From an uncultured Gemmatimonadales bacterium (GTDB lineage: Bacteria > Gemmatimonadota > Gemmatimonadetes > Gemmatimonadales > Gemmatimonadaceae), in NCBI GenBank assembly GCA_963793305.1, contig CAWBZV010000003.1, positions 224,001-288,000 of the forward strand: DNA of 64,000 bases. Reading direction: 5' to 3'. How positions within the stretch are numbered: the first letter of the stretch is position 1; every line of letters begins with the position of its first letter. Shown here one piece after another: positions 6,482-64,000 of this stretch. The notes under the pieces were generated by a model, which did not search any database, was not told the origin of the DNA, and was given only the letters and a program-made list of their open reading frames with translations. Position numbers and translations under genes: made by a program.

Positions 6482-7170
6482 CTCGCGCCGCCGCTCCGCG
6501 GCTCGTCGATGCGGCGCTTCGCACCGCTCGACTGGTCGGTTGACCTGCGCTCGGCTTCGCCGATCGCTGCCTCATCGTGCAACATAGACAGTCGTTCCCG
6601 TAGTTTCTGCCCGGCGAGACGCGTACGCGTCTTCACCGTGCCAAGCGGCTGACCGGTCCGCTCGGCGATCTCGGTCTGACTGAGCCCTCCGAAGTACGCC
6701 AACTCCAGCACTTCTCTCTGCTCAGGCGGCAACTCCTTGAGCGCCGCCGCCACGCGCTCGCGACGTTCCGCCTCCTCGGCGCCAGTCGCGGGATTCGGAG
6801 CCGCGCCATCCGACAGGTCGTCGACCACCGAAATCGGCGTCAGCGGCTCCTCCCGAAGCCGCCGCCGCGAGCGCAGCCGGTCGAGGGCGCGGCTCCGCGC
6901 GATCGTGACGATCCACGTCGAGACCGCGCCGCGCGAAGACTGATACCGCGAGGCCTGCCGCCACGCTTGATAGAACGTGTCCTCCACGACATCGTCGGCA
7001 TCGTCTGGGTCGCGCACCAGTCGCACCACCAGTGCATGGATTGGGCGAGACCACCGCTCGTAGAACTGCGACAGCGCTTGGGTCTCGCCCGCGCTCATAC
7101 GCCGAACGAGCTCGCGATCTTCGTCCACGTTGTCCGAAGGATACGCGGACGCGGGCGACAGCGGATTCAT
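6478..7170 (-). CDS. ECF RNA polymerase sigma factor (SigK-like); C-terminal 27 aa derive from a repeat element
   Basis: DADDVVEDTF, WIVTIARSRALD, LAYFGGLSQTEIAERTGQPLGTVKTR. Confidence 0.93.
   Translation of the reverse strand: MNPLSPASAYPSDNVDEDRELVRRMSAGETQALSQFYERWSRPIHALVVRLVRDPDDADDVVEDTFYQAWRQASRYQSSRGAVSTWIVTIARSRALDRLRSRRRLREEPLTPISVVDDLSDGAAPNPATGAEEAERRERVAAALKELPPEQREVLELAYFGGLSQTEIAERTGQPLGTVKTRTRLAGQKLRERLSMLHDEAAIGEAERRSTDQSSGAKRRIDEPRSGGAR
6487..6567 (-). repeat. Multi-hairpin repeat element, copy 1 (inside the sigma factor 3' end)
   Basis: Minus strand TCGGC-GAA-GCCGA ... CAACCGACCA GTCGA-GCGGTGC-GAA-GCGCCGC-A-TCGAC GAGCCGC-GGA-GCGGC. Confidence 0.88.
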
Positions 7171-7199
7171 CTGCTCGTAAGTATAGTACTTTTCCCCCC

Positions 7200-7985
7200 A
7201 TGACGACCCCCGCGAGCTGCCCTTCGTGCAGTGCCCCGTCGACCGGCGGCCGCTTCTGTTCTTCATGCGGCGCGCCATTCGAGGGCGCGTTGTGCGGCGC
7301 CTGTCGCTCCTCACTCTCGGCCGGCGCAAAGTTCTGTCATCGCTGCGGCGCCGCCGTCGGCTCCCGCCCTACCTCGGACCCGCGCATCTCTGCCACTCTG
7401 CCATGGGCGATCGCGTGTATTGCCGTTGTTGCATTAGTGGCACTCGTCGCCGGTCGAGGCATTGGCGCGCGCCGCTTCGCGACCGCGCAAGCAGCACCCG
7501 TTGCGGCACCGACCGACGACTCGACGCAAGAAGCACCCGTGAGAGCGCCGGATATCTCGACCATGTCTCCGGCGGAGCGAGCCGACCGGCTGTACGATCG
7601 CGTGATGCGGTTGCATAGTGAGGGGAAGGACGACAGCGTGAAGTTCTTCTCCCCGATGGTGCTGCAGGCCTATCAGATGCTCGGCCCACTCGACGCCGAT
7701 CAGCACTATGACCTGGGCCGTATCGGCGAAGTGCTCGGCATGGCGGATCTCGCCCGCGCCGAGGCCGATACGATTCTTAAAGTCCAGCCAACGCACTTAC
7801 TCGGCTTGACCTTGGCGGCGCGAGCCGCGATGCTCGACAAGCAACCGGCGAAGGCACACGATTTCTACAAGCGGCTCCTCGCCGCCGAACCCGCGGAGCG
7901 CCGCAAGGCGCTACCTGAATACGACCGTCACCGAGATGACATTGATGCCGCGGTCGCCACTGCACGCGGCGAGCTCAAAGCATGA
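7200..7985 (+). CDS. Double zinc-ribbon membrane protein with C-terminal TPR-like helices
   Basis: CPSC, CSSCG, CGAC, CHRCG motifs, a TM helix, then helical repeats; ATG at 7200. Confidence 0.8.
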   Translation: MTTPASCPSCSAPSTGGRFCSSCGAPFEGALCGACRSSLSAGAKFCHRCGAAVGSRPTSDPRISATLPWAIACIAVVALVALVAGRGIGARRFATAQAAPVAAPTDDSTQEAPVRAPDISTMSPAERADRLYDRVMRLHSEGKDDSVKFFSPMVLQAYQMLGPLDADQHYDLGRIGEVLGMADLARAEADTILKVQPTHLLGLTLAARAAMLDKQPAKAHDFYKRLLAAEPAERRKALPEYDRHRDDIDAAVATARGELKA

Positions 7986-8843
7986 CCACTATTCGCATCG
8001 CCCACAGCCCCGACTCCGACGACGCGTTCATGTTCTACGCGCTGGCCGAGGGGAAAATCGACACCGATGGGATCGTCTACATCCACGAGCTCGCGGACAT
8101 CGAGACGCTGAACCAGCGCGCGCTGCGCGGCGAGCTCGAAGTGACCGCGGCTTCGATCCACGCGTACGCGTACCTCGCCGATCGCTACGTCCTACTGCCG
8201 CACGGCGCATCGATGGGCGATCGATACGGGCCCCGGTTGGTCGCCACGAGTCAGATGTCCCGCGCCAATGTCCGCGGCAAACGCATCGCCGTCCCTGGGC
8301 CGCTGACCACGGCGTACCTGACACTCAAACTCTACGAACCGGATTTCGTCGCGCTGCAGACCCCGTTCGACAAGATCGAAGAGGCGGTGCTCAACGGGGA
8401 CGCAGACATGGGACTCCTGATCCACGAAGGCCAGCTGACGTACGCCGAGGCCGGCTTGTCGCTGGTCGAAGACATGGGCGAATGGTGGTACCAGGAGACC
8501 GGCCTGCCGCTCCCATTGGGCGGAAATGTTGTAAGAAAGGACCTAGGAGCCGACTTAATAGCGACAATATCGCGCCACTTATACGCGAGTATCTCGTATG
8601 GATTGAGCCATCAGACACAAAGCGCTCGATCATGCGATGCGATACGCGCGGGGACTCGAGAGGGAGCAGGCCGACACGTTCGTCGGCATGTACGTGAACG
8701 ACCTCACGCTCGACTACGGAGAAAAGGGACGTGAAGCCGTACGTCGGCTTCTGACGAGAGGGGTGGAGGCCGGCATCATCCCGCATCCAGTCACAGTCGA
8801 GTTCGTCGCCGATGCTGTCGATAATAGGGGTCGTGGCCAGTAA
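7982..8843 (+). CDS. mqnD: 1,4-dihydroxy-6-naphthoate synthase (futalosine menaquinone pathway), frameshift at ~8620
   Basis: IAHSPDSDDAFMFYA, LLIHEGQLTY, TGLPLPLGG; continues in another frame as ALDHAMRYARG...FVGMYVND. Confidence 0.9.
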
Positions 8844-8894
8844 ACAGTTCGTTGGCTAGCGTTACACAATGTCCCTCTCGCGGTCTAGAGCGTA

Positions 8895-11501
8895 GTGACG
8901 TCCTCGGCGCCTCATCCGTACTTCGCTACGCGATCCACGCCACCCGACGGAGACGCTCATCCGTCCGGTCGTTTTGCCGCGCTCGCTGATCAGGTCGCGG
9001 AAAGCGAGACCCTGACACAGATCGCCCGCCAGATCGCGGGCGCGGGCAGTGACCGTGGCGCCACGTTCGATCTGTTGGCCGCCGGCGCGGTCTCGCTCGT
9101 TGGCAGCGATGGAGCCATCGTCGCGCTCTTATCACATGACGGACATATTCGCGTCGAAGCCGCGGCCGGCACGCTGACGCCGATGCTCGGCTTCACGGCG
9201 CCGCTCGCTGGCTCACTCGCGGCCGAGTCGCTCGCCTGTTTCCACCCGCTGGTTCTGAACGACGCCGCTGGGGATTCGCGCGTCGAAGCGCACTTTCTGT
9301 CGCCCTTCAGCCCGCGCCAGGTCGTCGTCGCACCAATGCTCGTGGCGGAAGAGCCCCGCGGGTTCTTGCTCGCGCTCAACTGCGGCAAGGGGTACTTCTC
9401 GCCGGCCGACGGCGCGCTGTTGCAACGGCTGGCCGATCACGGGGCGATCGCGGTGAGGCACGCCGAGCTTCTGTCCCAGACTGAAGCAATAGCGAAAGAA
9501 GCACGAACGCTCGCCGACATCGTCCAGCAGATCAATCAGTCGCTCGAGCTCGAGCGCGTGGTGTCGCTGCTCGCCCGCCATGCCGCCGGTCTCCTCGGCG
9601 CGCGCGGCGCGCGGGTCGGCGTCCTGGACGGCGACGGCACGCGCCTCATCACGTCGGCGACATTCGGGGACGCGATCGATCGCATCGGCTCGGTCGTCGA
9701 TACCTCGACCGTGTTCGCCGGCGAGGCGGTGCGGCTGCGCCGGGCCGTGCTGACGACCGATCTCCGCCCATACGCGGACATGTGGGTGCGCACGAAGCGG
9801 GGCGTCTCGCTCGGCGAGGGTCGACCGAATGGCGCCGCGGCGCCACTCCTCGTCGGCGGTCGCATTATCGGAACGGTGACCGTGTTCGGTCGCGAGAACG
9901 GCGAGTTCTCCGATAAGGATGGCGCGGTCCTCCACGCCCTCGCGAATCACGCGGCGATTGCGATCGAGAACGCCCGACTGTATCGGGCGGCGGCGTACAC
10001 CGCGCGCCATGCGAGCATTCTCGCGGCGGCGGGACGGGCGCTCGCCAATAGCGCGACCGCGGACGACGTGTACCGGGGCATTGGCGAGATCGCCTTCGAG
10101 TCACTTGGCGCGAACGGCTTCACGGTCACGCTCGCCGATGTGGGGACGCGGCACGTCGAGCGCGCGCACGCCGAAGGACCCGGGTCCGGCGGCATGGCCC
10201 TGCCGCCCGACGTGTACTGGCTCACGCCGAACGGGCGCGCCGTCGAGTCGGGCAGGCCGTACTACGCCTCCGATATCGACGAGATTCCGCTCGACTGGGC
10301 GCCGCCAGGTTACGACCTCTCGAAGTACGAGATGCGCTCGGTGGCTATCCTGCCGCTCGTGGCCGAGGGCAGGCCACGGGGGATACTCTCGGTCCGGTTT
10401 CCAACGCTGCACAAGTTCGAGGATCACGAGCGGCGCCTCCTCGAGGATTTCGCGACCCAGGTCGCCGTAGCCGTCCGGAATGCGGAGCTGGCGGCGGCGA
10501 GCGAGAGCGCGCGGGAGCGCGAGCGGATGCTGGCGACCGCGCTCGCCACGATGGAAAACCCCGTGTTCGTTCTGGCCGCGGACGAGCACATCCGCTACGC
10601 GAACGTTGCTGCCTCGCGCGAGTACGGCTACCCGGTCGACGCGTTCATCGGCATGCCGTTCAGCCGCCTGCAAGCCGACGGCGAGTTACATCGCCGGGCC
10701 GATGACTCGGAATTTCCCGCGACCGTGGTGTCGAGTCCGTTCCGCGATGGGCAAGTGGTGAGCGTACGAAACACGACCGAGGAACGGCGGATCGCCGAGA
10801 CGCTGCTCCAGACCGAGAAGCTCGCGGCGATTGGCGAGCTCGTGGCGGGCGTCGCGCACGAGCTCAACAACCCCCTCACGGGCATCTCGACATTCGCCCA
10901 GTTGCTGCTCGAGGAGCGACTTGGCGAGGAACAGCTCGACGCCGTGCGCAACATCAAGCGCGAATCGGATCGGGCGGTATCGGTGATTCGGGATCTGCTC
11001 GTGTTTTCGCGCAAGAGCGACCCCCGTTACGGACAGGTCGATCTGCGGTCGCTGATCGAGCAGACGCTCCGGTTGCGGAGCTACACCCTCCAGTCGGCTG
11101 GGATCACGGTCGAGCGCGATGTCGATCCCAACCTGCCCACCGTGATGGGCGACGACCGGAAACTGCAGCAAGTGATCATGAACGTCATGGTGAATGCCGA
11201 GTACGCCATGCACCGCACGGACATTCGGCGTCTGGTGGTGCGAGCGAGAGGCGACGCCACGCACGTGGTGGTCGAGATCGCCGACACCGGCATCGGGATG
11301 ACCCCTGACATCGTCAAGCACGTCTTCGAGCCCTTCTACACGACGAAGCCGGTTGGCGTCGGGACCGGGCTCGGTCTGTCCGTCAGTTACGGTATTGTGA
11401 AAGCACACGGTGGCTCGATCGAGGTCAGCTCGACCGCGGGACTCGGTACCACGTTCCGGATCGCCCTGCCGCTCACCCCCGCCTCCCCGCCCCCAGAATG
11501 A
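8895..11501 (+). CDS. Multi-GAF/PAS sensor histidine kinase
   Basis: Three GAF-like repeats, PAS, then ELVAGVAHELNNPL, QVIMNVMVNA, DTGIGM, FYTTKPVGVGTGLGL. Confidence 0.93.
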   Translation: MTSSAPHPYFATRSTPPDGDAHPSGRFAALADQVAESETLTQIARQIAGAGSDRGATFDLLAAGAVSLVGSDGAIVALLSHDGHIRVEAAAGTLTPMLGFTAPLAGSLAAESLACFHPLVLNDAAGDSRVEAHFLSPFSPRQVVVAPMLVAEEPRGFLLALNCGKGYFSPADGALLQRLADHGAIAVRHAELLSQTEAIAKEARTLADIVQQINQSLELERVVSLLARHAAGLLGARGARVGVLDGDGTRLITSATFGDAIDRIGSVVDTSTVFAGEAVRLRRAVLTTDLRPYADMWVRTKRGVSLGEGRPNGAAAPLLVGGRIIGTVTVFGRENGEFSDKDGAVLHALANHAAIAIENARLYRAAAYTARHASILAAAGRALANSATADDVYRGIGEIAFESLGANGFTVTLADVGTRHVERAHAEGPGSGGMALPPDVYWLTPNGRAVESGRPYYASDIDEIPLDWAPPGYDLSKYEMRSVAILPLVAEGRPRGILSVRFPTLHKFEDHERRLLEDFATQVAVAVRNAELAAASESARERERMLATALATMENPVFVLAADEHIRYANVAASREYGYPVDAFIGMPFSRLQADGELHRRADDSEFPATVVSSPFRDGQVVSVRNTTEERRIAETLLQTEKLAAIGELVAGVAHELNNPLTGISTFAQLLLEERLGEEQLDAVRNIKRESDRAVSVIRDLLVFSRKSDPRYGQVDLRSLIEQTLRLRSYTLQSAGITVERDVDPNLPTVMGDDRKLQQVIMNVMVNAEYAMHRTDIRRLVVRARGDATHVVVEIADTGIGMTPDIVKHVFEPFYTTKPVGVGTGLGLSVSYGIVKAHGGSIEVSSTAGLGTTFRIALPLTPASPPPE

Positions 11502-12550: not shown

Positions 12551-12612
12551 CTTCGATGCCCTCGGCGTTGTATTTCCGGGCGACCTGAAATTCATACTTT
12601 GAGGAGGCGGTC

Positions 12613-13152: not shown

Positions 13153-13170
13153 TCCGGTCGCTTTCCAGCC

Positions 13171-13203
13171 AAAGGGGGCGTTCCCACTCGGACCGCCCCC
13201 TTG
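13171..13203 (+). terminator. Probable intrinsic terminator
   Basis: AAGGGGGCG...CGCCCCCTT inverted repeat just after the stop at 13152. Confidence 0.55.
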
Positions 13204-28747: not shown

Positions 28748-29335
28748 ATGTGGCGTGTGTTCCGGCACCGCGCCCATAGTATGGTCATCGGCGGCATGAA
28801 TGTCTTCACGTCCGACGATTCCGACATGGGCCGGGCGGTCGCCTTGCGCGCCCGCCTCGGACTCGCGCTGGACCTCATCGACCAATACGCGCCGCGAATC
28901 GGGGTCCGGCTACGCCGCAACGTCGTCGCCATCTTCCTCTGGCGAGTCGGAGGCACGTCGTACAACCCCTACACGCGAGTGATCCTGGTGGACGTGCGGT
29001 GGGGCATGATAGGGGAGCTCGAAGATCTGGCCCTCTCCCTGGTACACGAGGCGACGCATGCGCGGCAAATGACGATGGGGCTGCGCAAGCTGCGGCGCGG
29101 CAAAGGTCTCGAGCGGCGCATGGAGGCGCACGCGGTCGCCGCGAGCATCGCCTTTGCCGACCGGCTGCCGCCCGGCAGGTGGCGGAAGCCCACGCTCGCG
29201 GATCTCGACAAGAAGTGGTGGACGCTCGAGAACCTGGAGGCGCGACTGACGAAGGATGTGAAGGAGATTGGCGTGCCCGCCGAAGCAATCCGGATGGTGG
29301 CCGGAGCCATGCGAATGCTCGGGCTGCGGCAATGA
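28748..29335 (+). CDS. Hypothetical HExxH (zincin-like) protein; start uncertain (28748 or 28781)
   Basis: LALSLVHEATHARQ...RMEAHA; ATGA overlap with the next gene. Confidence 0.6.
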   Translation: MWRVFRHRAHSMVIGGMNVFTSDDSDMGRAVALRARLGLALDLIDQYAPRIGVRLRRNVVAIFLWRVGGTSYNPYTRVILVDVRWGMIGELEDLALSLVHEATHARQMTMGLRKLRRGKGLERRMEAHAVAASIAFADRLPPGRWRKPTLADLDKKWWTLENLEARLTKDVKEIGVPAEAIRMVAGAMRMLGLRQ

Positions 29336-30420
29336 CGGATCAGATCCCGGCCCATCATCGCCCCGGTGGCGGATTTCAGAATCCCTGGGGCCCCGGGAGC
29401 CAGCAAGCGCGGTTCGGACAATTCTTGAGGTGGGCACTGTTCGAGCGCCCACGGACGACACGTCGGGGCACTCCCGACCGGGCCACGTTCGCGGCCGCTC
29501 ACCTGCCCGTGGCGCCGAGCTTCTCGGTTCGCGAGTCGCCCGAAACGCTCGCGATCACCTGGATCGGGCACTCCAGCTTTCTCGTTCAGATCGCCGGGCA
29601 AAACCTGTTGCTCGACCCCGTCTGGGGTGACCGCGCATCGCCGATATCCTGGCTCGGTCCCCAGCAATGGACCCCGCCCGGGATTCCGTTTGACGCGCTG
29701 CCGCCGGTCGACGGGGTCATCCTCTCGCATGACCACTACGACCACCTGGACCAGCCGACTGTACGGCGTTTGGTGAAGCGCTACCCCGAGGCTCAATGGC
29801 GCGCGCCATTGGGCGTGGGACACTGGTTACGCCGAAGGGGAGTGAGCCAAGTGCAGGAGGCCGATTGGTGGGACCAGACCGACCTCGGGCCCCTCAAGCT
29901 CACCGCGACACCGGCGCAGCACTTCTCGGGTCGCCGTCTCGATAATCGAAACGGGACCCTCTGGTGTGGATGGGTCATCCGCGGCGGCGCGGCTCCGCCG
30001 CGCGTCGAGGCGGCAAACAGCGCCGCTCGACTGGTCGGTTGGACCGATCCGGCTCCGCCGACTCCTCACACGGTATTTTTTGCCGGCGACACCGGCGCCC
30101 ACCCGGTTTTTCCCGAGATCGGACAGCGCCACGGCCCGTTCGACGCCGTGCTCATGCCGATCGGAGCCTACGACCCCGAGTGGTTCATGGGCCCCGTTCA
30201 CATCGACCCGGAGCGCGCGGTCTCGGCGTTCCAAGCCCTGAACGCCGGTGACGCCACCATGGTCGCCATGCATTGGGGTACGTTCCAGCTCACCGACGAG
30301 CCAATGGACGAACCCCCCAAACGCGCGACCGCTGCATGGGCGAATGCGGGTCTCCCGCCACACCGGCTCTGGATCCCATCACTCGGCGAGACGAGACGCT
30401 GGCCGTTACACACGCACTGA
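29332..30420 (+). CDS. MBL-fold hydrolase (NAPE-PLD-like) carrying an in-frame repeat insertion
   Basis: TWIGHSS, SHDHYDHLD, PAQHFSGR, FAGDTG, MPIGAY, MHWGTF. Confidence 0.93.
   Translation: MTDQIPAHHRPGGGFQNPWGPGSQQARFGQFLRWALFERPRTTRRGTPDRATFAAAHLPVAPSFSVRESPETLAITWIGHSSFLVQIAGQNLLLDPVWGDRASPISWLGPQQWTPPGIPFDALPPVDGVILSHDHYDHLDQPTVRRLVKRYPEAQWRAPLGVGHWLRRRGVSQVQEADWWDQTDLGPLKLTATPAQHFSGRRLDNRNGTLWCGWVIRGGAAPPRVEAANSAARLVGWTDPAPPTPHTVFFAGDTGAHPVFPEIGQRHGPFDAVLMPIGAYDPEWFMGPVHIDPERAVSAFQALNAGDATMVAMHWGTFQLTDEPMDEPPKRATAAWANAGLPPHRLWIPSLGETRRWPLHTH
29987..30062 (-). repeat. Multi-hairpin repeat element, copy 2 (antisense, in-frame inside the MBL gene)
   Basis: Minus strand TCGGC-GGA-GCCGG ATCGGTCCAACCGACCA GTCGA-GCGGC-gctgttt-GCCGC-C-TCGAC GCGCGGC-GGA-GCCGCGC. 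Confidence 0.9.
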
Positions 30421-43826: not shown

Positions 43827-43887
43827 GCCAGTTAAGCTAGCGCAGGGCTGCAGACTCACGTATCTGATCGGCAACAATCGAGCGGAG

Positions 43888-43966
43888 GCTCGGCGCAGCC
43901 GAGCTCAGGTCAACCGACCAGTCGAGCAGTGCGTAGCCACTGCATCGACGCGCGGCGGAGCCGCGT
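43888..43966 (+). repeat. Multi-hairpin repeat element, copy 3 (intergenic)
   Basis: GCTCGGC-GCA-GCCGAGC TCAGGTCAACCGACCA GTCGA-GCAGTG-cgtagc-CACTGC-A-TCGAC GCGCGGC-GGA-GCCGCG. Confidence 0.9.
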
Positions 43967-53818: not shown

Positions 53819-56800
53819 ATGCTAATGTTGCCACGTCTTGGGGGGTCTGGGGGGCGTAGTTGCGGTTCGCCCCCCAGAGGAGAACAGACCAGTCGAGCGG
53901 CGCGAAGCGCTGCGTCGACGCGCCGCGGAGCGGCGTCACGTCTCTTTTGGATTGCCGTGCTCGCGCTGATCCCGGCGGTAATCCGGGCGCAGGTGGGCGT
54001 GTCCACCGACATCATCACTGGACAAGTCACGTCGCCCGACGGTCATCCCGTGCCGGGTGTGAGCATTCGCGTTGTCTCGACCGAGACACAGATCGGCCGC
54101 AACGCGACGACGAACTCTGACGGTCGCTACACGGTCGTGTTCCCCGACGGTGGTGGGAATTATCGCGTCGAGGCGCGCTTTGTCGGCTATCAGCCTTCGC
54201 GCCTCATGATCGGTCGCCAGGCCGACGAAGACCGGCTCGTCGCGAACATTCAGCTCGGGACATCGATCCCGACGCTCTCCACGGTGCGCACCACCGCGCG
54301 TCGCAATCAGCCGCGCGGCGATGCCGGTGGCACGGGTCGCTCGATGACGCCGCAGCAGCTCGACCGGTTGCCGATCGACGCCACCGACCCGAACACGATC
54401 GCGACGCTCGCCCCTGGCGTCGTCGGCATCGGCTCGACGGACACGACCGCGTCGTCGTTCTCCGTCGCGGGGCAGCGGCCAACGCTCAACAGCGTGACGC
54501 TCGACGGGACGACGTTCAGCGGCTCGGCGATTCCGTCCGAGGCCATTCGCAATACGCGCGTGATCACGAACACGTACAATGTCGCCCGTGGACAGTTCAC
54601 GGGCGGCCAGGTCGCGTCGACGACGCGCGGCGGGACGAACGTGCCGAGTGGGTCGTTCGGCTACTACTTCCGGAACCCATCGCTGGCGTTCGGCGAGCAA
54701 GGACCGAGCGCGTTCAGTCAGCTCCGCAATCAGAACCAACTGTCGGGCGGCGTCGGCGGGCCGCTCATGGTCGACCACATCTTCACGTTCAGCGCCTTCA
54801 ATCTGAGTCGTCGCGCGGACGACCTCGTGGATCTCGCCAACGACGATCCGACGACGCTCGCGCAGCTCGGCGTGCCGCAGAGCACCGTGACGACGTTCTT
54901 GAGGGCGCTGCAACAGAAGGGCGTGCCGATCACGAACGCGCTCGTGCCCGACTCGCGGTCGGTCGATAATCTCGCGGCGTTCGAGCGGCTCGATTTTCTC
55001 ATCGGCGACAACAATTCCCTGGTCGTGCGCGGCGATTTCCGCGGGCGGTTGCAAGACGGGCAGCGCGTGAGCCCGTACACGATCCCGACGGCCGGCGGCC
55101 ATCTCGACGGCGCGGGCGGCGGGATCTTTGCGTCGCTCACCACGCACTTGCCCGGCAACTTCATCAACGAAGTGCGCACGTATGGGCAGCGCGACTATCA
55201 GTCGACGAGCCCATACCTGAGCGGCCTCGCGGGACGCGTCAACGTGTTGCCCGAGACGACCTCCACATCGACCGGCATCACGACGTTCGGCTTCGGCGGC
55301 AATCCGGGCCTTCCCCAGTCCGGCTATACCGATCTCTGGGAGTCGACCGACGAGGTGTCCTGGCTCTCGCCGCGAGGCGGCCACCGGGTTCGTCTCGGCA
55401 TGCTCTTCGATCTCGGGCGCTCGTCGCAGCTCTACAATTTTGGCGTGAACGGCATCTACACGTACAACTCGCTGGCCGCGTTCGACTCCAACCAGGCGGC
55501 GACGTTCACGCGTTCGTTCAATGCCAACGCCTATCACGCCGGGTCGACCAGTGGAGCGGTGTACCTGGGCGACACGTGGGTCCCGTGGTCGCCGCTTCAG
55601 CTCACCTATGGCGTTCGCGTGGAAGGAACCGAGTATACCGGCGCTCCGGCCGAAAACGCTCAGGTCGACCATTTGTTCGGATTGAATACGAACTACTGGC
55701 CGTCAGAGATCCACGCGAGTCCGCGCATTGGCTTCACGTACTTCGTGCGCAATCCAAACGGGCCACCGGCAGCGGTGATACGTGGCGGATTTGGCGAATT
55801 CAGGGCCAACGCGCCATTGTCGCTCTTCTCCTCAGCGCAATCCGAGAATGGTCTCTCGAGCGGCGAGTCGCAGCTCATTTGCATTGGCCCGGGCGTGCCG
55901 TTCAACACGACCGCGGGATGGGGCGGATACTTGAACGGATCGACGCCGATTCCCACGTCGTGCAACAGCGGCTTCGGCACGTTCGGCGACAGTGTGCCCT
56001 TGAGACAGGTCGCCGGGTTCGATCGCGACTTCGAGTCGCCGCGCGCGTGGCGCGGATCGCTCGGCATACAGAAGCGGCTGTTCGGCACCGTGAACGGCTC
56101 GGTCGACTACTCGTATGCGCGCGGAATGGCGTTGTTCGGCGTGACCGATGCCAATCTCAATACGACGCCGGCGCTGTATCTTCGCGACGAAGGCAACCGC
56201 CCGATCTACAGTTCGCAGATCGACCCGACGACGGGCGCGGTCAGCTACGTCGGATCCCGGAAGGACGGGGAATTCGGTCAGGTCTGGGACATCAATTCGC
56301 GGCTCCAGTCGGAGACGCACCAGGTCACGGTCGCGATCAATGGCTTCACCCTACGCGGGATCGCGTACTCGTTGGCGTACACGTATCAGCACGCGCGTGA
56401 CCAGTCATCGTTCTCCGGCGGGTCGGCGTCGTACGGCTTCAGTTCCGCGACGACGGGCGGCAACCCGAACAACGTCGGGTGGGGCACGAGCGACCTGCAG
56501 CGCATGCACCAGTTTATCGGGACGTTCACCTACCCCGTTACACCATCGTTCGAGATCACGTCGATCGCCCGGCTCAACTCCGGCGCGCCGTACACGCCGA
56601 TCGTCAATCAAGACATCAACGGCAATGGCACGCGGAACGATCGCGCGTTCGTGTTCAATCCCGCGCAACTGCCGACGTACGACAGCGCCTACGCCGCGCC
56701 ACTCAAGGCGCTGCTCAATAGCTCATCGTCGCGCATTCGCGATTGCCTCCAGAGCCAGCTGGGCCAGGTCGCGGGTCGCAACAGCTGCGACGGCCCGTGG

Positions 56801-57580
56801 GCGCCGGCGCTGGATCTGCAGTTCAACTATCGCCCCGCGTACTTCGGGCTCGACCGGCGGCTCACGCTGTCGATCCTGGCCGTCAATTCGCTCACCGGAC
56901 TCGATGAGCTCGTGCACGGTCCGAATCACCTCGCCGGGTGGGGGCAGTCATTTCCACCGGACAACGTGCTGCTCTACGTGAAGGGGTACGACGAGACCAA
57001 CAACCGGTTCATCTATCAGGTGAACCAGCATTTCGGCCAGCCATACAGCGCGTACGGCGCATTCGCCGCACCGTTCCAGCTCGTGTTCCAAGCGCGCTTT
57101 GCCTTTGGCAACGTCACGGATCTCCGCAACATGTTCGGCGGCGGCGGCCGTGGCGACGGCGGCCGGCCCGGCGGGCCGGAGGGCGGTGCTGGCGCCGGCG
57201 CTCAGCCGATCTCGCTCGCCGATCAGATCGCGCAGCGGTTCGCGGATCGGTTCCCGAATCCGTTCGACCAGATCCTGGAGCTCAAGGACACGCTCGCACT
57301 CACGCCTGACGAGATCGGCAAGCTGACCACGGCCTCTGACTCGCTCAAAGAGCAAATCGCGACACTCAAGGGGCATGTGTCGACACAACTGGCGAAGCTC
57401 GGCAACAATCCCGATCCCGGCACGCTCATGTCACTCCTGCGACCCGAGCTCCTCGAGGCGCGGGGCATGAGCCGCGCGGCGCTGACCCAGGCTCAGGCCA
57501 TCCTGACCCCGGACCAATGGAAGAAGGTGCCGACCTCGATCAAAGAGCCGCGCCAGGGCGGCGGGGGCGGTCCGCGTTAG
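53819..57580 (+). CDS. Oar-like TonB-dependent receptor with carboxypeptidase-regulatory-like N-domain and C-terminal helical extension
   Basis: GQVT..DG.PV.GV, TNSDGRY, NSVTLDG, TRGGTN, TYGVRVE, SPRIGF; extra domain after FQARFAFG. Confidence 0.88.
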   Translation: MLMLPRLGGSGGRSCGSPPRGEQTSRAARSAASTRRGAASRLFWIAVLALIPAVIRAQVGVSTDIITGQVTSPDGHPVPGVSIRVVSTETQIGRNATTNSDGRYTVVFPDGGGNYRVEARFVGYQPSRLMIGRQADEDRLVANIQLGTSIPTLSTVRTTARRNQPRGDAGGTGRSMTPQQLDRLPIDATDPNTIATLAPGVVGIGSTDTTASSFSVAGQRPTLNSVTLDGTTFSGSAIPSEAIRNTRVITNTYNVARGQFTGGQVASTTRGGTNVPSGSFGYYFRNPSLAFGEQGPSAFSQLRNQNQLSGGVGGPLMVDHIFTFSAFNLSRRADDLVDLANDDPTTLAQLGVPQSTVTTFLRALQQKGVPITNALVPDSRSVDNLAAFERLDFLIGDNNSLVVRGDFRGRLQDGQRVSPYTIPTAGGHLDGAGGGIFASLTTHLPGNFINEVRTYGQRDYQSTSPYLSGLAGRVNVLPETTSTSTGITTFGFGGNPGLPQSGYTDLWESTDEVSWLSPRGGHRVRLGMLFDLGRSSQLYNFGVNGIYTYNSLAAFDSNQAATFTRSFNANAYHAGSTSGAVYLGDTWVPWSPLQLTYGVRVEGTEYTGAPAENAQVDHLFGLNTNYWPSEIHASPRIGFTYFVRNPNGPPAAVIRGGFGEFRANAPLSLFSSAQSENGLSSGESQLICIGPGVPFNTTAGWGGYLNGSTPIPTSCNSGFGTFGDSVPLRQVAGFDRDFESPRAWRGSLGIQKRLFGTVNGSVDYSYARGMALFGVTDANLNTTPALYLRDEGNRPIYSSQIDPTTGAVSYVGSRKDGEFGQVWDINSRLQSETHQVTVAINGFTLRGIAYSLAYTYQHARDQSSFSGGSASYGFSSATTGGNPNNVGWGTSDLQRMHQFIGTFTYPVTPSFEITSIARLNSGAPYTPIVNQDINGNGTRNDRAFVFNPAQLPTYDSAYAAPLKALLNSSSSRIRDCLQSQLGQVAGRNSCDGPWAPALDLQFNYRPAYFGLDRRLTLSILAVNSLTGLDELVHGPNHLAGWGQSFPPDNVLLYVKGYDETNNRFIYQVNQHFGQPYSAYGAFAAPFQLVFQARFAFGNVTDLRNMFGGGGRGDGGRPGGPEGGAGAGAQPISLADQIAQRFADRFPNPFDQILELKDTLALTPDEIGKLTTASDSLKEQIATLKGHVSTQLAKLGNNPDPGTLMSLLRPELLEARGMSRAALTQAQAILTPDQWKKVPTSIKEPRQGGGGGPR
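53839..53943 (+). repeat. Multi-hairpin repeat element, copy 4 (composite, 105 bp, in the signal-peptide region)
   Basis: CTGGGGGGCG...CGCCCCCCAG hairpin plus GACCA GTCGA-GCGGCGC-GAA-GCGCTGC-G-TCGAC GCGCCGC-GGA-GCGGCG; CACGTCT direct repeats at 53832 and 53937. Confidence 0.85.
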
Positions 57581-58074: not shown

Positions 58075-58091
58075 AGTTCGTTTTGGTTCGA

Positions 58092-58691
58092 TCAGCGTTC
58101 AGCGGTGACCGTTGGAAACGAGACGCCAAACACGAGCGGCAACATCGACGCATTGGCGTGCGGGCCAAAGTAATACAGATAGCGCGCCTCGGCGAATATG
58201 CCGATTCCGATGCCGGGACCTACGCCGAAAAGGCGGTACCGCGCACCTGCGCCGCCATCGAGGCCGAAGTGTGCGGCGGTCAGCGTCGGCACCGTGGGCG
58301 ATGGGCCGACAGCGGCCTTGGCTCGCAGGTTCTCTGACGTGTGATAATATCCGCCGCCGCCGATCACGTACGGAATGATCCCCTGTGGCGAGTTGGGGAA
58401 CGACCAGATCGCGTTACCAGAGATCGCCCAGACTTGCTGCGCGCCGAGGTAGTTGCTCGTGTGGTCGTACTCATCGTACAGACCTTCGAGTCGCACGCTG
58501 ATCGGGATGAACGGCGCGGTGTAATGCAGCCCCAATAGACCATTGAATCCCGGTGTCGCGGTGTTCGTCTTCAGTTGTCCGAACTGAAACGACGGGCCCG
58601 TGCCGAGGTCGAGGGACACCGGGATCTGCGCCGTGGCCTGGGCGGCCACGGCAGTGATACTGGCGAGTACTGCGAACCGAATCGCGCGCAT
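58092..58691 (-). CDS. Outer-membrane beta-barrel protein
   Basis: PYVIGGGGYY, FGLDGGAG, FAEARY, LPLVFGVSF. Confidence 0.85.
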   Translation of the reverse strand: MRAIRFAVLASITAVAAQATAQIPVSLDLGTGPSFQFGQLKTNTATPGFNGLLGLHYTAPFIPISVRLEGLYDEYDHTSNYLGAQQVWAISGNAIWSFPNSPQGIIPYVIGGGGYYHTSENLRAKAAVGPSPTVPTLTAAHFGLDGGAGARYRLFGVGPGIGIGIFAEARYLYYFGPHANASMLPLVFGVSFPTVTAER

Positions 58692-58718
58692 GCTCTCAAT
58701 CTATCGAGTGCGCACGCG

Positions 58719-59237
58719 CTAGAGCTGAATGCCGAATGTCAGAGGGATGTACTGGGTGTTCGCATTGATCACGTAGTGATAGCGCAGCTCGCCGAAGACC
58801 GAGAACAAGAGCGGGATGTGCGCCTTCACCCCGACCCCGGCATTGATGCCGAACTTGCTGGCGGATGTCCCGAGGCCAGGGCTGATGTCGGTGTAGTAGT
58901 ACCCCACGCCACCGATGAAGTAGGGCGCGATCAGAGGCGCCGGAATTCTGACCGTCGCGTTCGCGGTCGCGGACCAGACATTGTCGTGCCCTGCATCGAA
59001 CTTGACGGGCAGATGCACGAACGATCCATCGAGCCGCAGTCCAACCGGCAGCAGCGAAGACTCGATGCCGCCGAACACGAGCACGTTGTACCCGCTGTTA
59101 TCGATGTTGCTCGTATTGCCGACGGGCAACGCGAGCCCGCCGCCGGCGCCGAGCGTGGGGTGGATGATCTGCGCCTGTCCTCTGGGCGCGGCGATGAGTA
59201 TCCCGAAAAGTGCACAGACCAGGGCACGCGGATTCAT
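58719..59237 (-). CDS. Outer-membrane beta-barrel protein
   Basis: PYFIGGVGYY, FGINAGVG, FGELRYH, IPLTFGIQL. Confidence 0.85.
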   Translation of the reverse strand: MNPRALVCALFGILIAAPRGQAQIIHPTLGAGGGLALPVGNTSNIDNSGYNVLVFGGIESSLLPVGLRLDGSFVHLPVKFDAGHDNVWSATANATVRIPAPLIAPYFIGGVGYYYTDISPGLGTSASKFGINAGVGVKAHIPLLFSVFGELRYHYVINANTQYIPLTFGIQL

Positions 59238-59334
59238 GCGCAGGGACCTCACAAGTTGTGGTGACCAAATAACTTCAATCGCGCCGACAGCGCGCGCGAT
59301 GTCACCACAAGTGGCAAGTCTCGTGCAGAGACGC

Positions 59335-59367
59335 GAGCGGGGCGCCCGAAAACCGGACGCCCCGCTC
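59335..59367 (-). terminator. GC hairpin after csp gene
   Basis: GAGCGGGGCG...CGCCCCGCTC; weak U-tract. Confidence 0.5.
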
Positions 59368-59392
59368 ACTGACCTCTTCGTTCGCCGACGAA

Positions 59393-59614
59393 TTACCGGC
59401 CAGCGCCGCCCGACTTCACGACGTTCTCGGCTGCAGGACCCTTCTGCCCCTGCACGATGTCGAACTCGACGACATCACCCTCGGCCAGAGACTTGAACCC
59501 GTTGCCCTGGATCGCGCTGTAGTGGACGAAGCAGTCCTTCTGACCATTGTCCGGCGTGATGAACCCAAAGCCCTTCGCGTCGTTGAACCACTTCACTTTC
59601 CCGGTCGTACGCAT
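59393..59614 (-). CDS. Cold-shock protein (CspA family)
   Basis: [23 protein letters not shown]. Confidence 0.97.
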
Positions 59615-59748
59615 TCCTACTCCTGAGAGATTTTTTGTCTAGGGAGCGGAGCGCGCCGTACCCCGACAAAGCAATGACGCGGGACCTGTGAGCCCCCCGC
59701 GAACTGGACTTGTTCGCCGATTGGACGGATTCTCGGCTTACGCGCGCG

Positions 59749-59777
59749 AATATAGCGAGGACAAGTTGTCCAGGCAA
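59749..59777 (-). promoter_or_regulatory. Sigma70 promoter of the csp gene, implying a ~130-nt 5' UTR
   Basis: TTGCCT-N17-TATATT on the minus strand. Confidence 0.65.
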
Positions 59778-59801
59778 GCCCAAACGCTAAGGGTTTTTTA
59801 A

Positions 59802-60195
59802 TCAAAGAGGCGCAGGTGATACGCCGTCGACGAAGTATTCGGTCTCGCCCCAGCAGTTCGTCGGGAGACCTTTGTGCTGCCGGTAGTGCAGCGCGACGCG
59901 TTTGCCGATCTGCGAGTTGATCGCCGAGGCGATCGAGTCGCTCCGGACCGTGAAATCCCAGAATGAGCGGCTGCACACCCGGCTGCGTGGTCTGCGCCAT
60001 CTCGCCTTCCCACGTCTTACAGAGCCACCCCTTCTGCGAGAACTTCTGCACGAACCCCGCCCGCTCGCCCGTGGAATACGAGAAGAAGCGCGCGGCCAGC
60101 GTGTAGAGCACGAATACCACTATGATCGTGAGCACCAGCAACACGCCAATGTTCCGTATCGGATGCGTGCGACGGGGCTCGGCGGCTGTGGTCAT
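59802..60195 (-). CDS. Membrane-anchored hypothetical protein (frameshift at ~59963)
   Basis: TM helix, YSTGERAGFVQKFSQKGWLCKTWEGEM; continues WDFTVRSD...VALHY...CWGETEYFVDG in another frame. Confidence 0.75.
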
Positions 60196-60225
60196 GGACC
60201 CGAAACTACCAATTAAGTTTGGGGC

Positions 60226-61454
<1,229 letters not shown>

Positions 61455-61455
<1 letters not shown>

Positions 61456-62144
61456 TGCTCGCGCTGCTTCTCGTCCTTCAGACAACAGTCGGCGCAATCA
61501 AGGGAGGGGTGATCGATACAACGAGACACCCGGTGCCCGGCGTCACCGTGAGCATCGTCGGCTCGACCATCTCCGCGCGCACCGACAGCGCCGGCGCCTT
61601 TCGCCTGAACAATGTGCCGGTCGGTCGCCAGATCGTGAGCGTTGGCCATGTCGCGAAACAGGTCGACGTCAAGCCCGACACCGCCATCGGCATCGTACTC
61701 ATGGCGCGCGACGTCGCGGCCCCGAGATACGTGTGGCTGGGCTGCAAACCGTTCGGCACCTGTAGCCAGATGCGCTACGTCGCGAGCTTGTTCAAAAGCG
61801 GTATTGCCCCTGGCGCCGGCGTCATTCGCGACTCGCTAGCCTGGTCGGCATTCCTGTCGCGCTACGCCACGGGAGACAATGCCGCGATCCGGGATGACAT
61901 CATCGACTGGACGCACGAGATGCTCGTGGTCGTGTGCGACGCGGGCATCAATCGCGTCGAGCGCCACCCGGACCGGCTGACCGTGCTCCTGGGCCCGGAT
62001 TCCATGACCGGCCCGATGTTCGGGCCAAATCCCGCGTTGCTCGCGACCGTGATCGCGGTCAAACGCACGACCCTGCCAGTCGAGTATCGCGCGATCCTCC
62101 CGATCACGCATGTCCCGCCGACGGTCGACTGGTCAGGTCAGTGA
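61455..62144 (+). CDS. Exported protein with carboxypeptidase-regulatory-like domain
   Basis: GAIKGGVID..PVPGVTV...TDSAGAFRLNNVPVG. Confidence 0.7.
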
Positions 62145-62507
62145 TTTGCTCCGGACGAGCATCCAGGCAAACCCGAGCGAGATCGCGACGCCCGTGACCC
62201 CCTGGGCGATTCGACCCAGCGCGATCTGCACGAGATCACCCAGGCCGTTGACGAGAAAGACACCGAGCGCGATATACCACGCCCAACGTTTGCCCCGCAG
62301 CAATCCAACGCCAGCCGCGCCGCAGACGGCGCCCAACGCGAGCAGCAATGCGCCGGCCAGGCGACCGATCGGCTGAAGAGCGGCATAGCCCCTCGGGTTC
62401 AGCGCCCCGAGCCCATCCAACACGGTACCGGGCACCACTAGCGAAAGGCCGACCAGCACCGCCATCAGCGTCGCGAAGAATAGAAACGCACTGACGACGA
62501 CGATCAC
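62133..62507 (-). CDS. Small 4-TM membrane protein
   Basis: Hydrophobic helices, GLLRGKRWAW; GTGA overlap with the upstream gene. Confidence 0.7.
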   Translation of the reverse strand: MIVVVSAFLFFATLMAVLVGLSLVVPGTVLDGLGALNPRGYAALQPIGRLAGALLLALGAVCGAAGVGLLRGKRWAWYIALGVFLVNGLGDLVQIALGRIAQGVTGVAISLGFAWMLVRSKSLT

Positions 62508-63502
62508 GGCAATGATGCCATGAAGTCAGCGAGATAGTTCTTCCAGACCACGGCCTTCGTATGCGTGCCGTGGCCGACGGTCTGATCCGTCGTCGGCAAG
62601 AGTACGAACTTGACGCGCTTGACCCGCTTGAGCAGTGGTTCCATCGTGCCGAGCTCCGGCGGGTTGATCGCGTCGTCGGCCGAGTTGATCGCCAACACCG
62701 GCGCAACGATGCGCTCCAAGTCAGCGGACGGATCGTAGTCGCGCGACGCATCGAGCTGATAGATGAGGTCATTGGCGTCGTCCTTCGCCATGCGGCTGCG
62801 CACAATCGCCATCTCGGCGCTGTCCGCCTTATCCCGCGTCGGTCCGGCCTTCTGCAGGACCAGCGGGCTCGTTGCCCAAAGTGACAAGAGCTGCATGGCC
62901 GGCGTGTACCCGTACGGCTGCTTCGTGTACTCTCCGCCGTTGTAGTCGGGCGAGTTTCGGATATCGTCCATCGCCATGCGGCGCCACATGCGATTGCGCC
63001 CGGTGAGCTGCGTCGGATTGCACGCCAGCGGGACGGCGCCATCCATGAACGTCGGATACCGTTCCAGCCACATCCACGAGTGCATGCAGCCCATCGACGT
63101 GCCCATGACCAGCCGCAGATGGCGCACGTGCAGCCCGTCGCTCACCAGCCGATACTCGGCCTCGACCATGTCCGCATACCCATAGTGCGGAAACTTCGCG
63201 TGCAGCCCATCGCTCGGCTTGCTCGACCCGCCGTGGCCAATATCGTCGGGCAGGATCACGAAATATTTCGTCGTGTCCAGCAGCTGTCCCGGGCCGAAGA
63301 GCTCGCCGGCGAAGATCGGCAGCAGGAACTGGTCGCCCGAGCCGCTCGTGCCGTGCATGATCAGCACAGCCTTGCCGCTGGAGGGTCCAAGCGTGCGATA
63401 GTGGATCCGCAGCTCGGGCATCACCTCGCCGTCGGCGAGCTTGACGTCGCGCGTCGTATAGTTGGCGGCCTGCACGAGGAGCAGCAGTAGGAGAGGGTTC
63501 AT
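62504..63502 (-). CDS. Homoserine O-acetyltransferase-like alpha/beta hydrolase
   Basis: IHYRTLG, PDDIGHG, GTSMGCMH, INSADD, GHGTH. Confidence 0.85.
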   Translation of the reverse strand: MNPLLLLLLVQAANYTTRDVKLADGEVMPELRIHYRTLGPSSGKAVLIMHGTSGSGDQFLLPIFAGELFGPGQLLDTTKYFVILPDDIGHGGSSKPSDGLHAKFPHYGYADMVEAEYRLVSDGLHVRHLRLVMGTSMGCMHSWMWLERYPTFMDGAVPLACNPTQLTGRNRMWRRMAMDDIRNSPDYNGGEYTKQPYGYTPAMQLLSLWATSPLVLQKAGPTRDKADSAEMAIVRSRMAKDDANDLIYQLDASRDYDPSADLERIVAPVLAINSADDAINPPELGTMEPLLKRVKRVKFVLLPTTDQTVGHGTHTKAVVWKNYLADFMASLP

Positions 63503-63519
63503 GGCACTATTATGCCATC

Positions 63520-64000
63520 ATGCGAGCGATGCTGCTCGAAGAGCCCCGCAAGCCGTTACACATGGTCGAATGGCCCGAGCCGACGCCGCTCGAAGGGCAA
63601 GTTCTGATTCATGTCCACGCCTGCGGTGTCTGTCGGACCGACCTCCACATCGTCGATGGGGAGCTCGGCGGAGCCGAGATCGGTCCAACCGACCAGTCGA
63701 GCAGCGCAGCTGCCTCGACGCGCGGCGGAGCCGCGCTGACGCAACCATCGCTGCCGCTGATCATCGGCCACGAGATCGTCGGCACGGTCGCCGCTCGCGG
63801 CCCGGGCGCGAATCGGTTCGCGGTCGGCGACCGGGTCGGCGTGCCCTGGCTCGGCTGGACCGACGACACCTGTTCGTATTGTCGGAGCGGGCGCGAAAAC
63901 CTGTGTCTCAACGCCCGATTCACAGGCTACACGATCGATGGCGGATATGCCGATGCGGTCATCGCCGACGAGCGCTATGCGGTGGCGATCCCCGCGTCGT
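63520..64000 (+). CDS. Zinc-dependent alcohol dehydrogenase (3' truncated) with a 24-aa in-frame insertion
   Basis: Translated by hand (not in the ORF track): MRAMLL...CGVCRTDLH...GHEIVG...GDRVGVPW...CSYC...ENLC. Confidence 0.92.
   Translation, partial: MRAMLLEEPRKPLHMVEWPEPTPLEGQVLIHVHACGVCRTDLHIVDGELGGAEIGPTDQSSSAAASTRGGAALTQPSLPLIIGHEIVGTVAARGPGANRFAVGDRVGVPWLGWTDDTCSYCRSGRENLCLNARFTGYTIDGGYADAVIADERYAVAIPAS
63663..63737 (+). repeat. Multi-hairpin repeat element, copy 5 (in-frame inside ADH)
   Basis: CTCGGC-GGA-GCCGAG ATCGGTCCAACCGACCA GTCGA-GCAGC-GCA-GCTGC-C-TCGAC GCGCGGC-GGA-GCCGCGC. Confidence 0.92.

What the first reader, a model, noticed from the sequence alone, without database searches (positions are those of the whole stretch)
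6487..63737. Dispersed multi-hairpin DNA element that inserts in-frame into protein-coding genes (5 copies in 64 kb)
Seen: copies at 6487-6567(-), 29987-30062(-), 43888-43966(+), 53839-53943(+) and 63663-63737(+). Layout: hairpin 1 (TCGGC-GNA-GCCGR; replaced in the 53839 copy), then the core CAACCGACCAGTCGAGC (identical in 4 copies, GACCAGTCGAGC in the fifth), then a bulged hairpin GTCGA-[stem-loop]-N-TCGAC, then hairpin 3 with a GGA loop. The inner stems differ between copies but stay paired (GCAGTG/CACTGC, GCAGC/GCTGC, GCGGC/GCCGC, GCGGTGC/GCGCCGC), which suggests selection on structure. Four copies lie inside unrelated ORFs, in both orientations, and none breaks the frame. Established: GC-GNA-GC tri-loops are unusually stable single-stranded DNA mini-hairpins; REP elements are associated with HUH/RAYT nucleases; Rickettsia palindromic elements insert in-frame into genes. 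Inference: a non-autonomous mobile repeat family, possibly hundreds of copies genome-wide, that adds ~24-35-aa peptides to proteins. No mobiliser is visible in the window. I cannot confirm that the family is undescribed.
Basis: partly seen in the sequence, partly recalled or inferred. Interest (0 to 1): 0.92.

Follow-up and report, generated by a model that had tools for sequence, protein, structure and literature searches.

The report
Hairpin repeat inserting into soil-bacterium genes
A short folded DNA repeat, found about a hundred times in the genome of one group of soil bacteria, is still being gained and lost between strains and often adds about 25 amino acids to working proteins; no known enzyme for moving it was found, and in some copies one arm matches the DNA it landed next to.

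Summary
The five copies belong to a family of about 99 copies in this genome (not hundreds), confined to one genus of Gemmatimonadaceae. It is mobile: 22 of 36 scored sites are empty in a ~94% identical congener, including four of the five window copies, with net gains of 69, 75, 105 and 72 nt. Inserts in PolA, SMC and MeaB are absent from all five congeners. Net length is a multiple of three in 33 of 44 pairs, and 23 of 44 junctions lie within 10 nt of a stop codon. No RAYT was found in six genomes and no reverse transcriptase in this one. The 3' junction is sharp and the 5' junction fuzzy, with small deletions or duplications up to about 80 nt. In two-hairpin relatives, the arm behind the conserved CCAACCGAC motif complements target bases already present in empty alleles (p = 3e-4, n = 11). 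Most likely this is a single-stranded DNA element copied into nicked targets by host repair synthesis with fold-back; the enzyme is unidentified. It works like RPE, MIRU, BRE and REP repeats but fails membership in those tested: a new variant of a known kind.

The parts
6487..6567 (-). Type A copy (hp1 - CCAACCGAC - bulged hp2 - hp3) forming the C-terminal tail of an ECF sigma factor
   Evidence: empty in G001 (net 69 nt), G005, G003, G002; G004 keeps hp3 only
6478..7170 (-). Host gene: ECF sigma factor; its stop overlaps the start of an RskA-type anti-sigma gene
29987..30065 (-). Type A copy, antisense and in frame (+25 aa) inside a metallo-beta-lactamase-fold hydrolase
   Evidence: empty in all five congeners; insert falls between residues 274 and 279 of NAPE-PLD 4qn9
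29332..30420 (+). Host gene: NAPE-PLD-like metallo-beta-lactamase-fold hydrolase
43887..43966 (+). Type A copy, intergenic, shared with G001 and G004 (older insertion)
53840..53936 (+). Type B copy (G-rich 5' hairpin module plus the same core), in frame (+35 aa) just after the start codon of an outer-membrane receptor gene; 7-nt direct repeat at 53832-53838 and 53937-53943
   Evidence: empty in G001 (net 105 nt) and in a contig with 7 differences in 550 nt
53825..57580 (+). Host gene: carboxypeptidase-regulatory-domain outer-membrane beta-barrel receptor (start inferred from the empty allele)
63660..63737 (+). Type A copy, sense and in frame (+24 aa) inside the GroES-like domain of a zinc alcohol dehydrogenase
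   Evidence: empty in G001, G002, G003, G005 and in contigs of runs X2 and X3 (72-nt skip)
63529..64000 (+). Host gene: zinc alcohol dehydrogenase (runs on past the window end)

Best explanation
A genus-specific, non-autonomous hairpin element that acts as single-stranded DNA and is copied into new sites by target-primed DNA synthesis. SHOWN: it is gained and lost between close strains; the 3' junction is sharp at the last hairpin while the 5' junction is fuzzy; sites show small deletions, short duplications or (type B) 14-80 nt duplications of the 3' flank; in two-hairpin relatives the arm behind the conserved CCAACCGAC motif complements bases already present in the empty target. INFERRED: a nick at the target, usually near a stop codon with the element ending up on the sense strand, gives a 3' end that copies a donor from its 3' end. 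The copied stem-loop folds back, so the outer arm is written from the target strand and not the donor, at insertion or soon after. Synthesis then runs through the conserved motif and the 5' hairpin and rejoins the target by microhomology, ahead of the nick (deletion) or behind it (duplication). The unpaired motif is the likely protein site; the nicking protein is unidentified, and Ku/LigD-type repair is an untested candidate for the synthesis. Selection keeps the copies that preserve frame or sit at gene ends; most copies are stop-free in most frames, so many insertions survive.
For: Empty/filled alleles: 22 of 36 scored G000 sites empty in G001; 15 of 26 scored G001 copies empty in G000, a few of them extra tandem units. 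Junction profile: filled/empty identity rises at the hp3 end from about 0.3-0.6 to 0.7-0.9, but fades over about 10 nt at the 5' side (21 type A pairs). Long duplications start 0-8 nt from the 3' end at 12 of 42 type B site bins (about 11 sites) against 1 of 61 type A bins; null maximum score 9, threshold 14. Arm versus empty target: complementary run 5.3 nt (own site) against 3.5 (swapped), permutation p 2.8e-4, n = 11 of 13 tried; best cases 10, 8, 7, 7, 6 nt; two of these targets are present in three empty genomes or strains each. No type A copy is within 2 edits of another (0 of 65, median 7-10), yet seven shared orthologous pairs differ by 0-3 (read by eye). Loops are GNA/GNNA/TT types on one strand, none UUCG. 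Ku and two LigD polymerase domains are present. Frame kept in 33 of 44 pairs, p 2e-8; 23 of 44 within 10 nt of a stop against 1.8% of the genome.
Against: No enzyme is identified and nothing was assayed. In the main three-hairpin family the hp1 arm shows no excess complement to the empty target (n = 19, p 0.62), and its hp2 arms are fixed. Five of the 11 two-hairpin cases show only 3-nt runs, and two of the best targets are partly palindromic, so a direct copy fits as well. For three good cases only one empty allele is known, so deletion remnants are not excluded; remnants do occur (G004 at 6487, G001 at copy 51). The 1-68 nt between duplication and element has no found source, except one case that resembles the flank of another locus. 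Flank-carrying tandem clusters are also described for RAYT-moved REPINs (PMC3116915). Ku/LigD are common in soil bacteria (own knowledge), so their presence is weak support.
Confidence: 0.42

Rival explanations
1. An ordinary REP/REPIN-like element moved by a Y1 HUH transposase that is lost, unassembled or too divergent to detect; arms are later perfected by quasi-palindrome template switching unrelated to insertion.
For: One-strand hairpins with a bulge, an NGAG tetramer at the hp1 foot (GGAG 16, TGAG 8 of 50), closeness to gene 3' ends as for REPs (PMC3733652), flank-carrying tandem clusters as for REPINs (PMC3116915), variation coupled to integration in the BIME model (PMC3333891). The genomes are assemblies of 67-95% completeness. 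Template-switch correction is documented in bacteria (PMC5941160), and flanks are sometimes rewritten too.
Against: NF047646 0 of 6 at E<=0.1 and PF01797 0 of 5, with controls ringing, including a one-contig genome with 45 motif copies. 0 of 50 feet read GTAG or GTGG. IS200/IS605-type enzymes make no target duplication (PMC3333891).
Confidence: 0.25
2. Guide-directed insertion: the arm behind the conserved motif is an inherited guide that base-pairs with single-stranded target DNA, as in IS608 but longer, and an unknown nuclease/ligase joins the ends.
For: 5-10 nt complement to pre-existing target in 6 of 11 cases. G003 siblings share one arm (10 copies, mostly tandem units, with the same 11-mer), and several G000 empty orthologues hold a similar word (by eye, 69-78% identity). 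Longer pairing retargets IS608 (PMC5934647, abstract).
Against: The 14 two-hairpin arms in G000 are all different 11-mers, so no donor-daughter pair shares a guide. The main family has a fixed arm and diverse targets. Fuzzy 5' ends and long duplications are not explained.
Confidence: 0.2
3. SINE-like retrotransposition: an RNA copy is inserted by target-primed reverse transcription.
For: Sharp 3' end, variable duplications, extra 5' bases, 5' truncations; sense bias 25 of 30 inside genes.
Against: No RT in G000, G001, G004, G005; tblastn and motif scans of G000 negative. The two G003 RTs look like group II intron proteins, and no element was noticed beside them. Loops are DNA-type; no tail.
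Confidence: 0.08
4. Not mobile: ancestral regulatory or structural hairpins differentially lost.
For: Some type B sites are shared across strains 80-85% alike, and partial remnants exist.
Against: PolA, SMC, MeaB and the hydrolase are empty in all five congeners and ADH in four; the empty state matches solved homologues.
Confidence: 0.02

Closest known systems
Rickettsia palindromic elements (RPE; seen second-hand in PMC3184786 and PMC3733652)
   Same: Small palindromic repeats inserted in frame in conserved genes.
   Different: RPEs are listed at about 105-146 bp; this family is about 75-105 nt, GC-rich and modular, in a free-living soil lineage, with many filled/empty pairs. Sequence homology was not tested.
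Mycobacterial interspersed repetitive units (MIRU; PMC3184786 section 9, PMC12548453 passage)
   Same: 40-100 bp, tens of copies, at gene junctions in operons, ORF-bearing, no mobiliser named in the passages read; tandem arrays occur here too (62-69 nt units in G003).
   Different: MIRUs insert at start codons with 4-nt direct repeats and form a coupled mini-ORF. This element uses ATGA/GTGA overlaps but fuses in frame, has no fixed repeat, and also enters gene interiors.
Betaproteobacterial repeat element (BRE; PMC3110155)
   Same: 75-91 bp, GC-rich, chromosomal; intergenic, overlapping ORF ends or inside genes; variable tandem number.
   Different: Different sequence: neither core motif is in the BRE list; BRE has T-rich ends.
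REP/REPIN/BIME with RAYT (PMC3116915, PMC3333891, PMC6006769) and CGTC-tagged REPs (PMC3733652)
   Same: One-strand hairpins, closeness to gene 3' ends, flank-carrying tandem clusters; CGTC REPs also lack a known transposase.
   Different: No GT[AG]G foot, no RAYT found, three hairpins around an unpaired conserved motif, and copy-specific arms complementary to the target.
IS200/IS605 ends (IS608; PMC5934647, PMC3333891)
   Same: Hairpin at a fixed distance from a conserved short motif; possible base-pair recognition of the target.
   Different: No TnpA or TnpB found; target duplications and deletions occur; the pairing arm is 5-10 nt and differs per copy.

Membership tests
REP/REPIN | GT[AG]G tetranucleotide at the hairpin foot | tested here: not met
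   0 of 50 parsed type A feet; GGAG 16, TGAG 8, AGAG 3; rule from PMC6006769
REP/REPIN | RAYT (TnpA-REP) gene in the host lineage | tested here: not met
   NF047646 0 of 6, PF01797 0 of 5, controls rang; genomes 67-95% complete
REP/REPIN | Single 20-40 nt palindrome, often as inverted doublet | tested here: not met
   75-105 nt, three hairpins on one strand; the type B module may hold an inverted copy of the motif, not resolved
REP/REPIN | Close to gene 3' ends; flank-carrying tandem clusters | tested here: met
   23 of 44 within 10 nt of a stop; duplications at about 11 type B sites
CGTC-tagged REP | CGTC tag, 8-9 bp stem starting with A-T pairs, CCA tail | tested here: inconclusive
   A CGTC occurs on the lower strand beside hp2, but the layout in the text does not fit; consensus figures not visible; supplements hold neither motif
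MITE | Terminal inverted repeats | tested here: not met
   Longest complement between the 18-nt ends is at most 6 nt in 99 of 99 copies
MITE | Fixed-length target duplication | tested here: not met
   Deletions, short repeats and 14-80 nt duplications all occur
RPE | In-frame insertion in conserved genes | tested here: met
   PolA +25 aa, SMC +21, MeaB +25, ADH +24, hydrolase +25
RPE | Sequence homology to RPE families | not tested
MIRU | Insertion at a start codon with a 4-nt direct repeat and a coupled mini-ORF | tested here: not met
   ATGA/GTGA overlaps are used (copies 55, 56, 58) but without a repeated ATGA at the 3' end; 55 and 56 fuse in frame
MIRU | Tandem arrays of the unit | tested here: met
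   62-69 nt units, 2-8 copies, in G003; tandem type B units
BRE | Sequence similarity to BRE | tested here: not met
   Core motifs absent from the BRE list
IS200/IS605 derivative | TnpA or TnpB in the genus; no target duplication | tested here: not met
   duplications
Integron attC site | RYYYAAC and GTTRRRY boxes enclosing the hairpin (boxes recalled) | tested here: not met
   Both boxes together in 0 of 92 parsed copies; first box alone in 26
Retroelement (SINE-like) | Reverse transcriptase in the host | tested here: not met
   None in G000, G001, G004, G005; two intron-like RTs in G003
Rfam structured RNA | Match at gathering score | tested here: not met
   0 in the window; only a sub-threshold miRNA-model hit (23 bits against 47) over one copy in four loci

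The most novel reading that the evidence does not exclude
A mode of mobility without transposase or reverse transcriptase, in which each new copy is partly written from its own target: target-primed, fold-back DNA synthesis gives every insertion a unique arm that pairs with the flank around a conserved CCAACCGAC core. If general, it would explain how RPE-, MIRU- and BRE-type repeats spread without a visible mobiliser and keep supplying new peptide loops to proteins.
Probability: 0.2. Interest if true: 0.88.

Novelty: new variant of a known kind. Interest (0 to 1): 0.64.

Why it matters
How small hairpin repeats such as RPE, MIRU, BRE and CGTC-REPs move is an open question. This family is still dimorphic in populations about 99% alike, so its insertion scars can be read directly, and they show features that a fixed-end transposase does not predict. 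It also adds 21-35 aa to the encoded products of genes that are single-copy in the assembly (PolA, SMC, ribosomal L17, Asd), a natural test of tolerated insertion sites and of peptide birth. In practice it breaks Pfam domains and start calls in this genus and could serve as a strain marker.

Tried and rejected
Mobiliser searches: Y1_Tnp 0 of 5; NF047646 0 of 6; Y2_Tnp 0 of 5 but the control was silent, so uninformative; DUF559 none in G000, one weak hit in G003; IS110 in 3 of 6, one copy in G000; Rep_2-type 0 of 6 (108; prompted by a recalled likeness of the type B hairpin to rolling-circle origins); TnpB zinc ribbon 0 of 6; RT only in G003. A GIY-YIG gene beside copy 54 is a conserved UvrC-like gene, empty in G004 and G005. 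A Rep_1-like HUH gene (below cut-off) in a small integrated element was not found in the five congeners with this query. A relaxase is present in G000, not followed. Tyrosine recombinases were listed (48) but not tested for integron type. Genes flanked by copies look like housekeeping genes by eye. Replication-strand bias 27 against 41, p 0.11, 31 unclear. Viral collection: type B motif 0 hits; 14 hits to the 16-mer lack the hairpins and were taken as chance. Plasmids: 5 weak partial hits, E 0.02-0.3, not followed; phages none. A peptide profile against 1.84 billion proteins gave 3 hits, two with the element peptide and one unrelated repeat. No RNA holder was listed, so expression was not assessed. 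The genome contigs pattern was narrow and cannot show absence of distant relatives. In one search one stop distance was mis-entered (24 of 44); corrected to 23. Scripts 70 and 73 stopped with errors after printing the figures cited. No structure was predicted.
Full report
1. Observation. They fold into the stated hairpins as DNA (z -3.9 to -4.7). A 20-copy alignment shows 93% pairing and 11 pairs with changes on both sides. Rfam has no match.

2. Family size and range. The window is G000:C3:224001-288000 of a 5.72 Mb, 65% GC assembly. The 12-mer core occurs 78 times. A profile finds 98 hits at E<=0.01 against 2 weak hits in the reversed genome. My working set is 99 copies (E<=0.25, spanning the model): about 72 of type A (small GNA hairpin in front) and 27 of type B (G-rich hairpin in front; the script mislabelled the window's 53839 copy as A). 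Two copies are alleles or paralogues of one scpA locus. About 14 two-hairpin relatives and about 8 type B modules with other 3' parts also exist. The exact core is in 4 of 5 congeners and 0 of 35 other genomes. The broader motif is in 6 of 6 genus genomes (3-45 copies, controls 0-2) and at background (0-3, controls 0-3) in 300 other genomes of the phylum. A narrow scan of genome contigs gave 6 loci, all titled Gemmatimonadaceae. In metagenomes 84 loci hold the type B module; for 90 of 92 matches a flank maps to G000.

3. It moves. Of 36 G000 sites scored in G001 (about 94% identical), 22 are empty and 14 filled. Of 26 G001 copies scored, 15 are empty in G000, a few being extra tandem units. 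Only sites covered by fetched loci were scored, not all 99. Four window copies are empty in G001 (net 69, 75, 105, 72 nt); 43888 is shared. A contig with 7 differences in 550 nt lacks the 53839 copy, and contigs of two runs lack the 63663 copy. Inserts in PolA, SMC and MeaB (named from sequence; MeaB confirmed by Pfam) are absent from all five congeners. The ADH and hydrolase inserts fall between aligned blocks of solved homologues. Loss also happens: partial remnants are seen.

4. Where it lands. By my own simple gene caller (5,221 genes), 30 copies are inside genes (16 internal, 11 C-terminal, 3 N-terminal), 29 overlap ends and 40 are intergenic. Inside genes 25 of 30 are on the sense strand (p 3e-4). 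In 44 filled/empty pairs (partial or tandem-only pairs left out) net length is a multiple of three in 33: 14 of 17 coding and 19 of 27 other junctions; the three coding exceptions lie within 28 nt of the stop. 23 of 44 junctions are within 10 nt of a stop codon, against 1.8% of the genome or 6.0% of positions outside deep coding DNA. Type A copies are stop-free in 48-55 of 66 cases per frame. I read the frame bias as selection acting on a permissive sequence (inference). Closeness to gene 3' ends is already described for REPs (PMC3733652).

5. Junction anatomy. The 3' boundary is sharp at the end of hp3; the 5' boundary fades over about 10 nt. Type A sites show short repeats or small deletions. 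Type B sites often carry a 14-80 nt copy of the 3' flank placed upstream, starting 0-8 nt from the 3' end and separated from the element by 1-68 other bases: 12 of 42 site bins, against 1 of 61 for type A. Different strains show different lengths at the same site. G003 has tandem arrays of a related 62-69 nt unit. No two type A copies are within 2 edits (0 of 65), although shared orthologous copies mostly differ by 0-3 (by eye), so variation seems to arise when a copy is born, or donors are missing from the assembly.

6. Arms that match the target. In two-hairpin relatives the bases just behind CCAACCGAC are copy-specific and pair with the 3' flank. Empty alleles show that this flank was often there before: complementary runs of 10, 8, 7, 7, 6 and 5 nt in 6 of 11 anchored cases, 3 nt in the other five; own-site mean 5.3 against 3.5 for swapped sites, p 2.8e-4; two further cases could not be anchored. 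For C5:732346 and C14:50045 three empty genomes or strains agree, so the target is ancestral. Limits: two targets are partly palindromic; three good cases rest on one empty allele; in others the flank itself differs from the empty allele; and the same test on hp1 of the main family is negative (n = 19, p 0.62).

7. Mobiliser. None found: RAYT and Y1, TnpB (120) and Rep_2-type (108) are absent from the genomes searched; the IS91-type search was uninformative; RT and DUF559 are absent from G000; IS110 is patchy. The assemblies are 67-95% complete, so absence is not proven, though one is a single contig rich in copies. Ku and two LigD polymerase domains are present.

8. Mechanism. I favour (0.42) target-primed copying of a single-stranded DNA donor with fold-back, which accounts in one scheme for the sharp 3' end, fuzzy 5' end, variable duplication or deletion, unique copies and target-matched arms. 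All enzymatic steps are inferred. Rivals: a missed RAYT-like enzyme plus later quasi-palindrome correction (0.25), inherited guides (0.20), reverse transcription (0.08). That this is a real mobile repeat giving in-frame inserts is near certain.

9. Known systems. It works like RPE, MIRU, BRE and REP/REPIN repeats, but fails the tested defining features of REP, MITE, MIRU, BRE, attC and IS200/IS605; homology to RPE was not tested. Papers seen: PMC3733652 (passages; four supplements searched, 131; figures not visible), PMC3184786 (passages and sections 9 and 15), PMC12548453 (passages), PMC6006769 (passages), PMC12306157 (passages), PMC5941160 (passages), PMC5934647 (abstract and outline), PMC3116915 (passages), PMC3110155 (passages and supplement list), PMC3333891 (passages). 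The original RPE and MIRU papers were not read. Ten literature searches listed no description of such a repeat in Gemmatimonadota. The library holds only Creative Commons PMC papers and bioRxiv, and preprint supplements were closed, so a listing elsewhere is possible.

10. Verdict. Real, active and apparently undescribed family; a new variant of a known kind. Interest 0.64. If the arms are written from the target at insertion (probability 0.2), it would be a new mode of mobility (0.88).

Noticed in passing
window ~7185 (orthologue L049:775-900, G004): G004 carries a tandem pair of a two-hairpin relative (net 119 nt) just upstream of the ECF sigma start codon, where G000 is empty: a second, independent insertion at the same gene.
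   Followed up: partly
L039:10079-10583; L233; L133 (G003): Head-to-tail arrays of 62-69 nt two-hairpin units (2-8 copies); where units join, the end of one hairpin is the start of the next.
   Followed up: partly
G000:C14:29892-30045, C19:10038-10201; L029, L195, L210: Long type B variants with 60-70 nt of extra hairpins in the loop of the 5' module; their GNA loops read on the opposite strand, next to an inverted look-alike of the core motif.
   Followed up: no
L173; G000:C2:526556: A type B 5' module without the core sits directly upstream of a tRNA-like gene (recognised by eye).
   Followed up: no
L226:8300-13500 (G000:C5:316300-321450): Small integrated element with a Rep_1-like HUH gene, two HTH-like genes and an integrase, beside a tRNA-like sequence; the Rep was not found in five congeners.
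   Followed up: partly
G000:C5:284129-285328 (L127): Type B copy between mutM-like and UvrC-like GIY-YIG genes, empty in G004 and G005; G003 has a 66-nt array just downstream of the same gene.
   Followed up: partly
G000:C6:1472-2248 and C21:6550-7326: Two scpA-like genes 79% identical, both ending in the element at the same place with different loops: second strain in the bin or paralogue.
   Followed up: partly
G000:C21:17795-18600: A miaA-like gene appears in pieces next to two family copies; real frameshift or calling error not checked.
   Followed up: no
L166 versus G000:C5:1041511; L157 versus C5:958809: The same intergenic spots hold a type A copy in G000 and a type B copy (in one case inverted) in other strains: recurrent hot spots.
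   Followed up: no
L047, L048 (G003:C1:245-256 kb): Two group II intron-like RT genes beside a PHP-domain polymerase-like gene and IS110 copies, in a region that may be foreign DNA or contamination.
   Followed up: no
L264 (G002 smc), L258 (G002 polA): G002 has unrelated extra residues at the same positions in SMC and PolA, so these loops tolerate insertions repeatedly.
   Followed up: no
P0001, P0002: Predicted proteins elsewhere carry the element peptide, one as a 44-aa stand-alone ORF: the repeat creates spurious or new small genes in databases.
   Followed up: no
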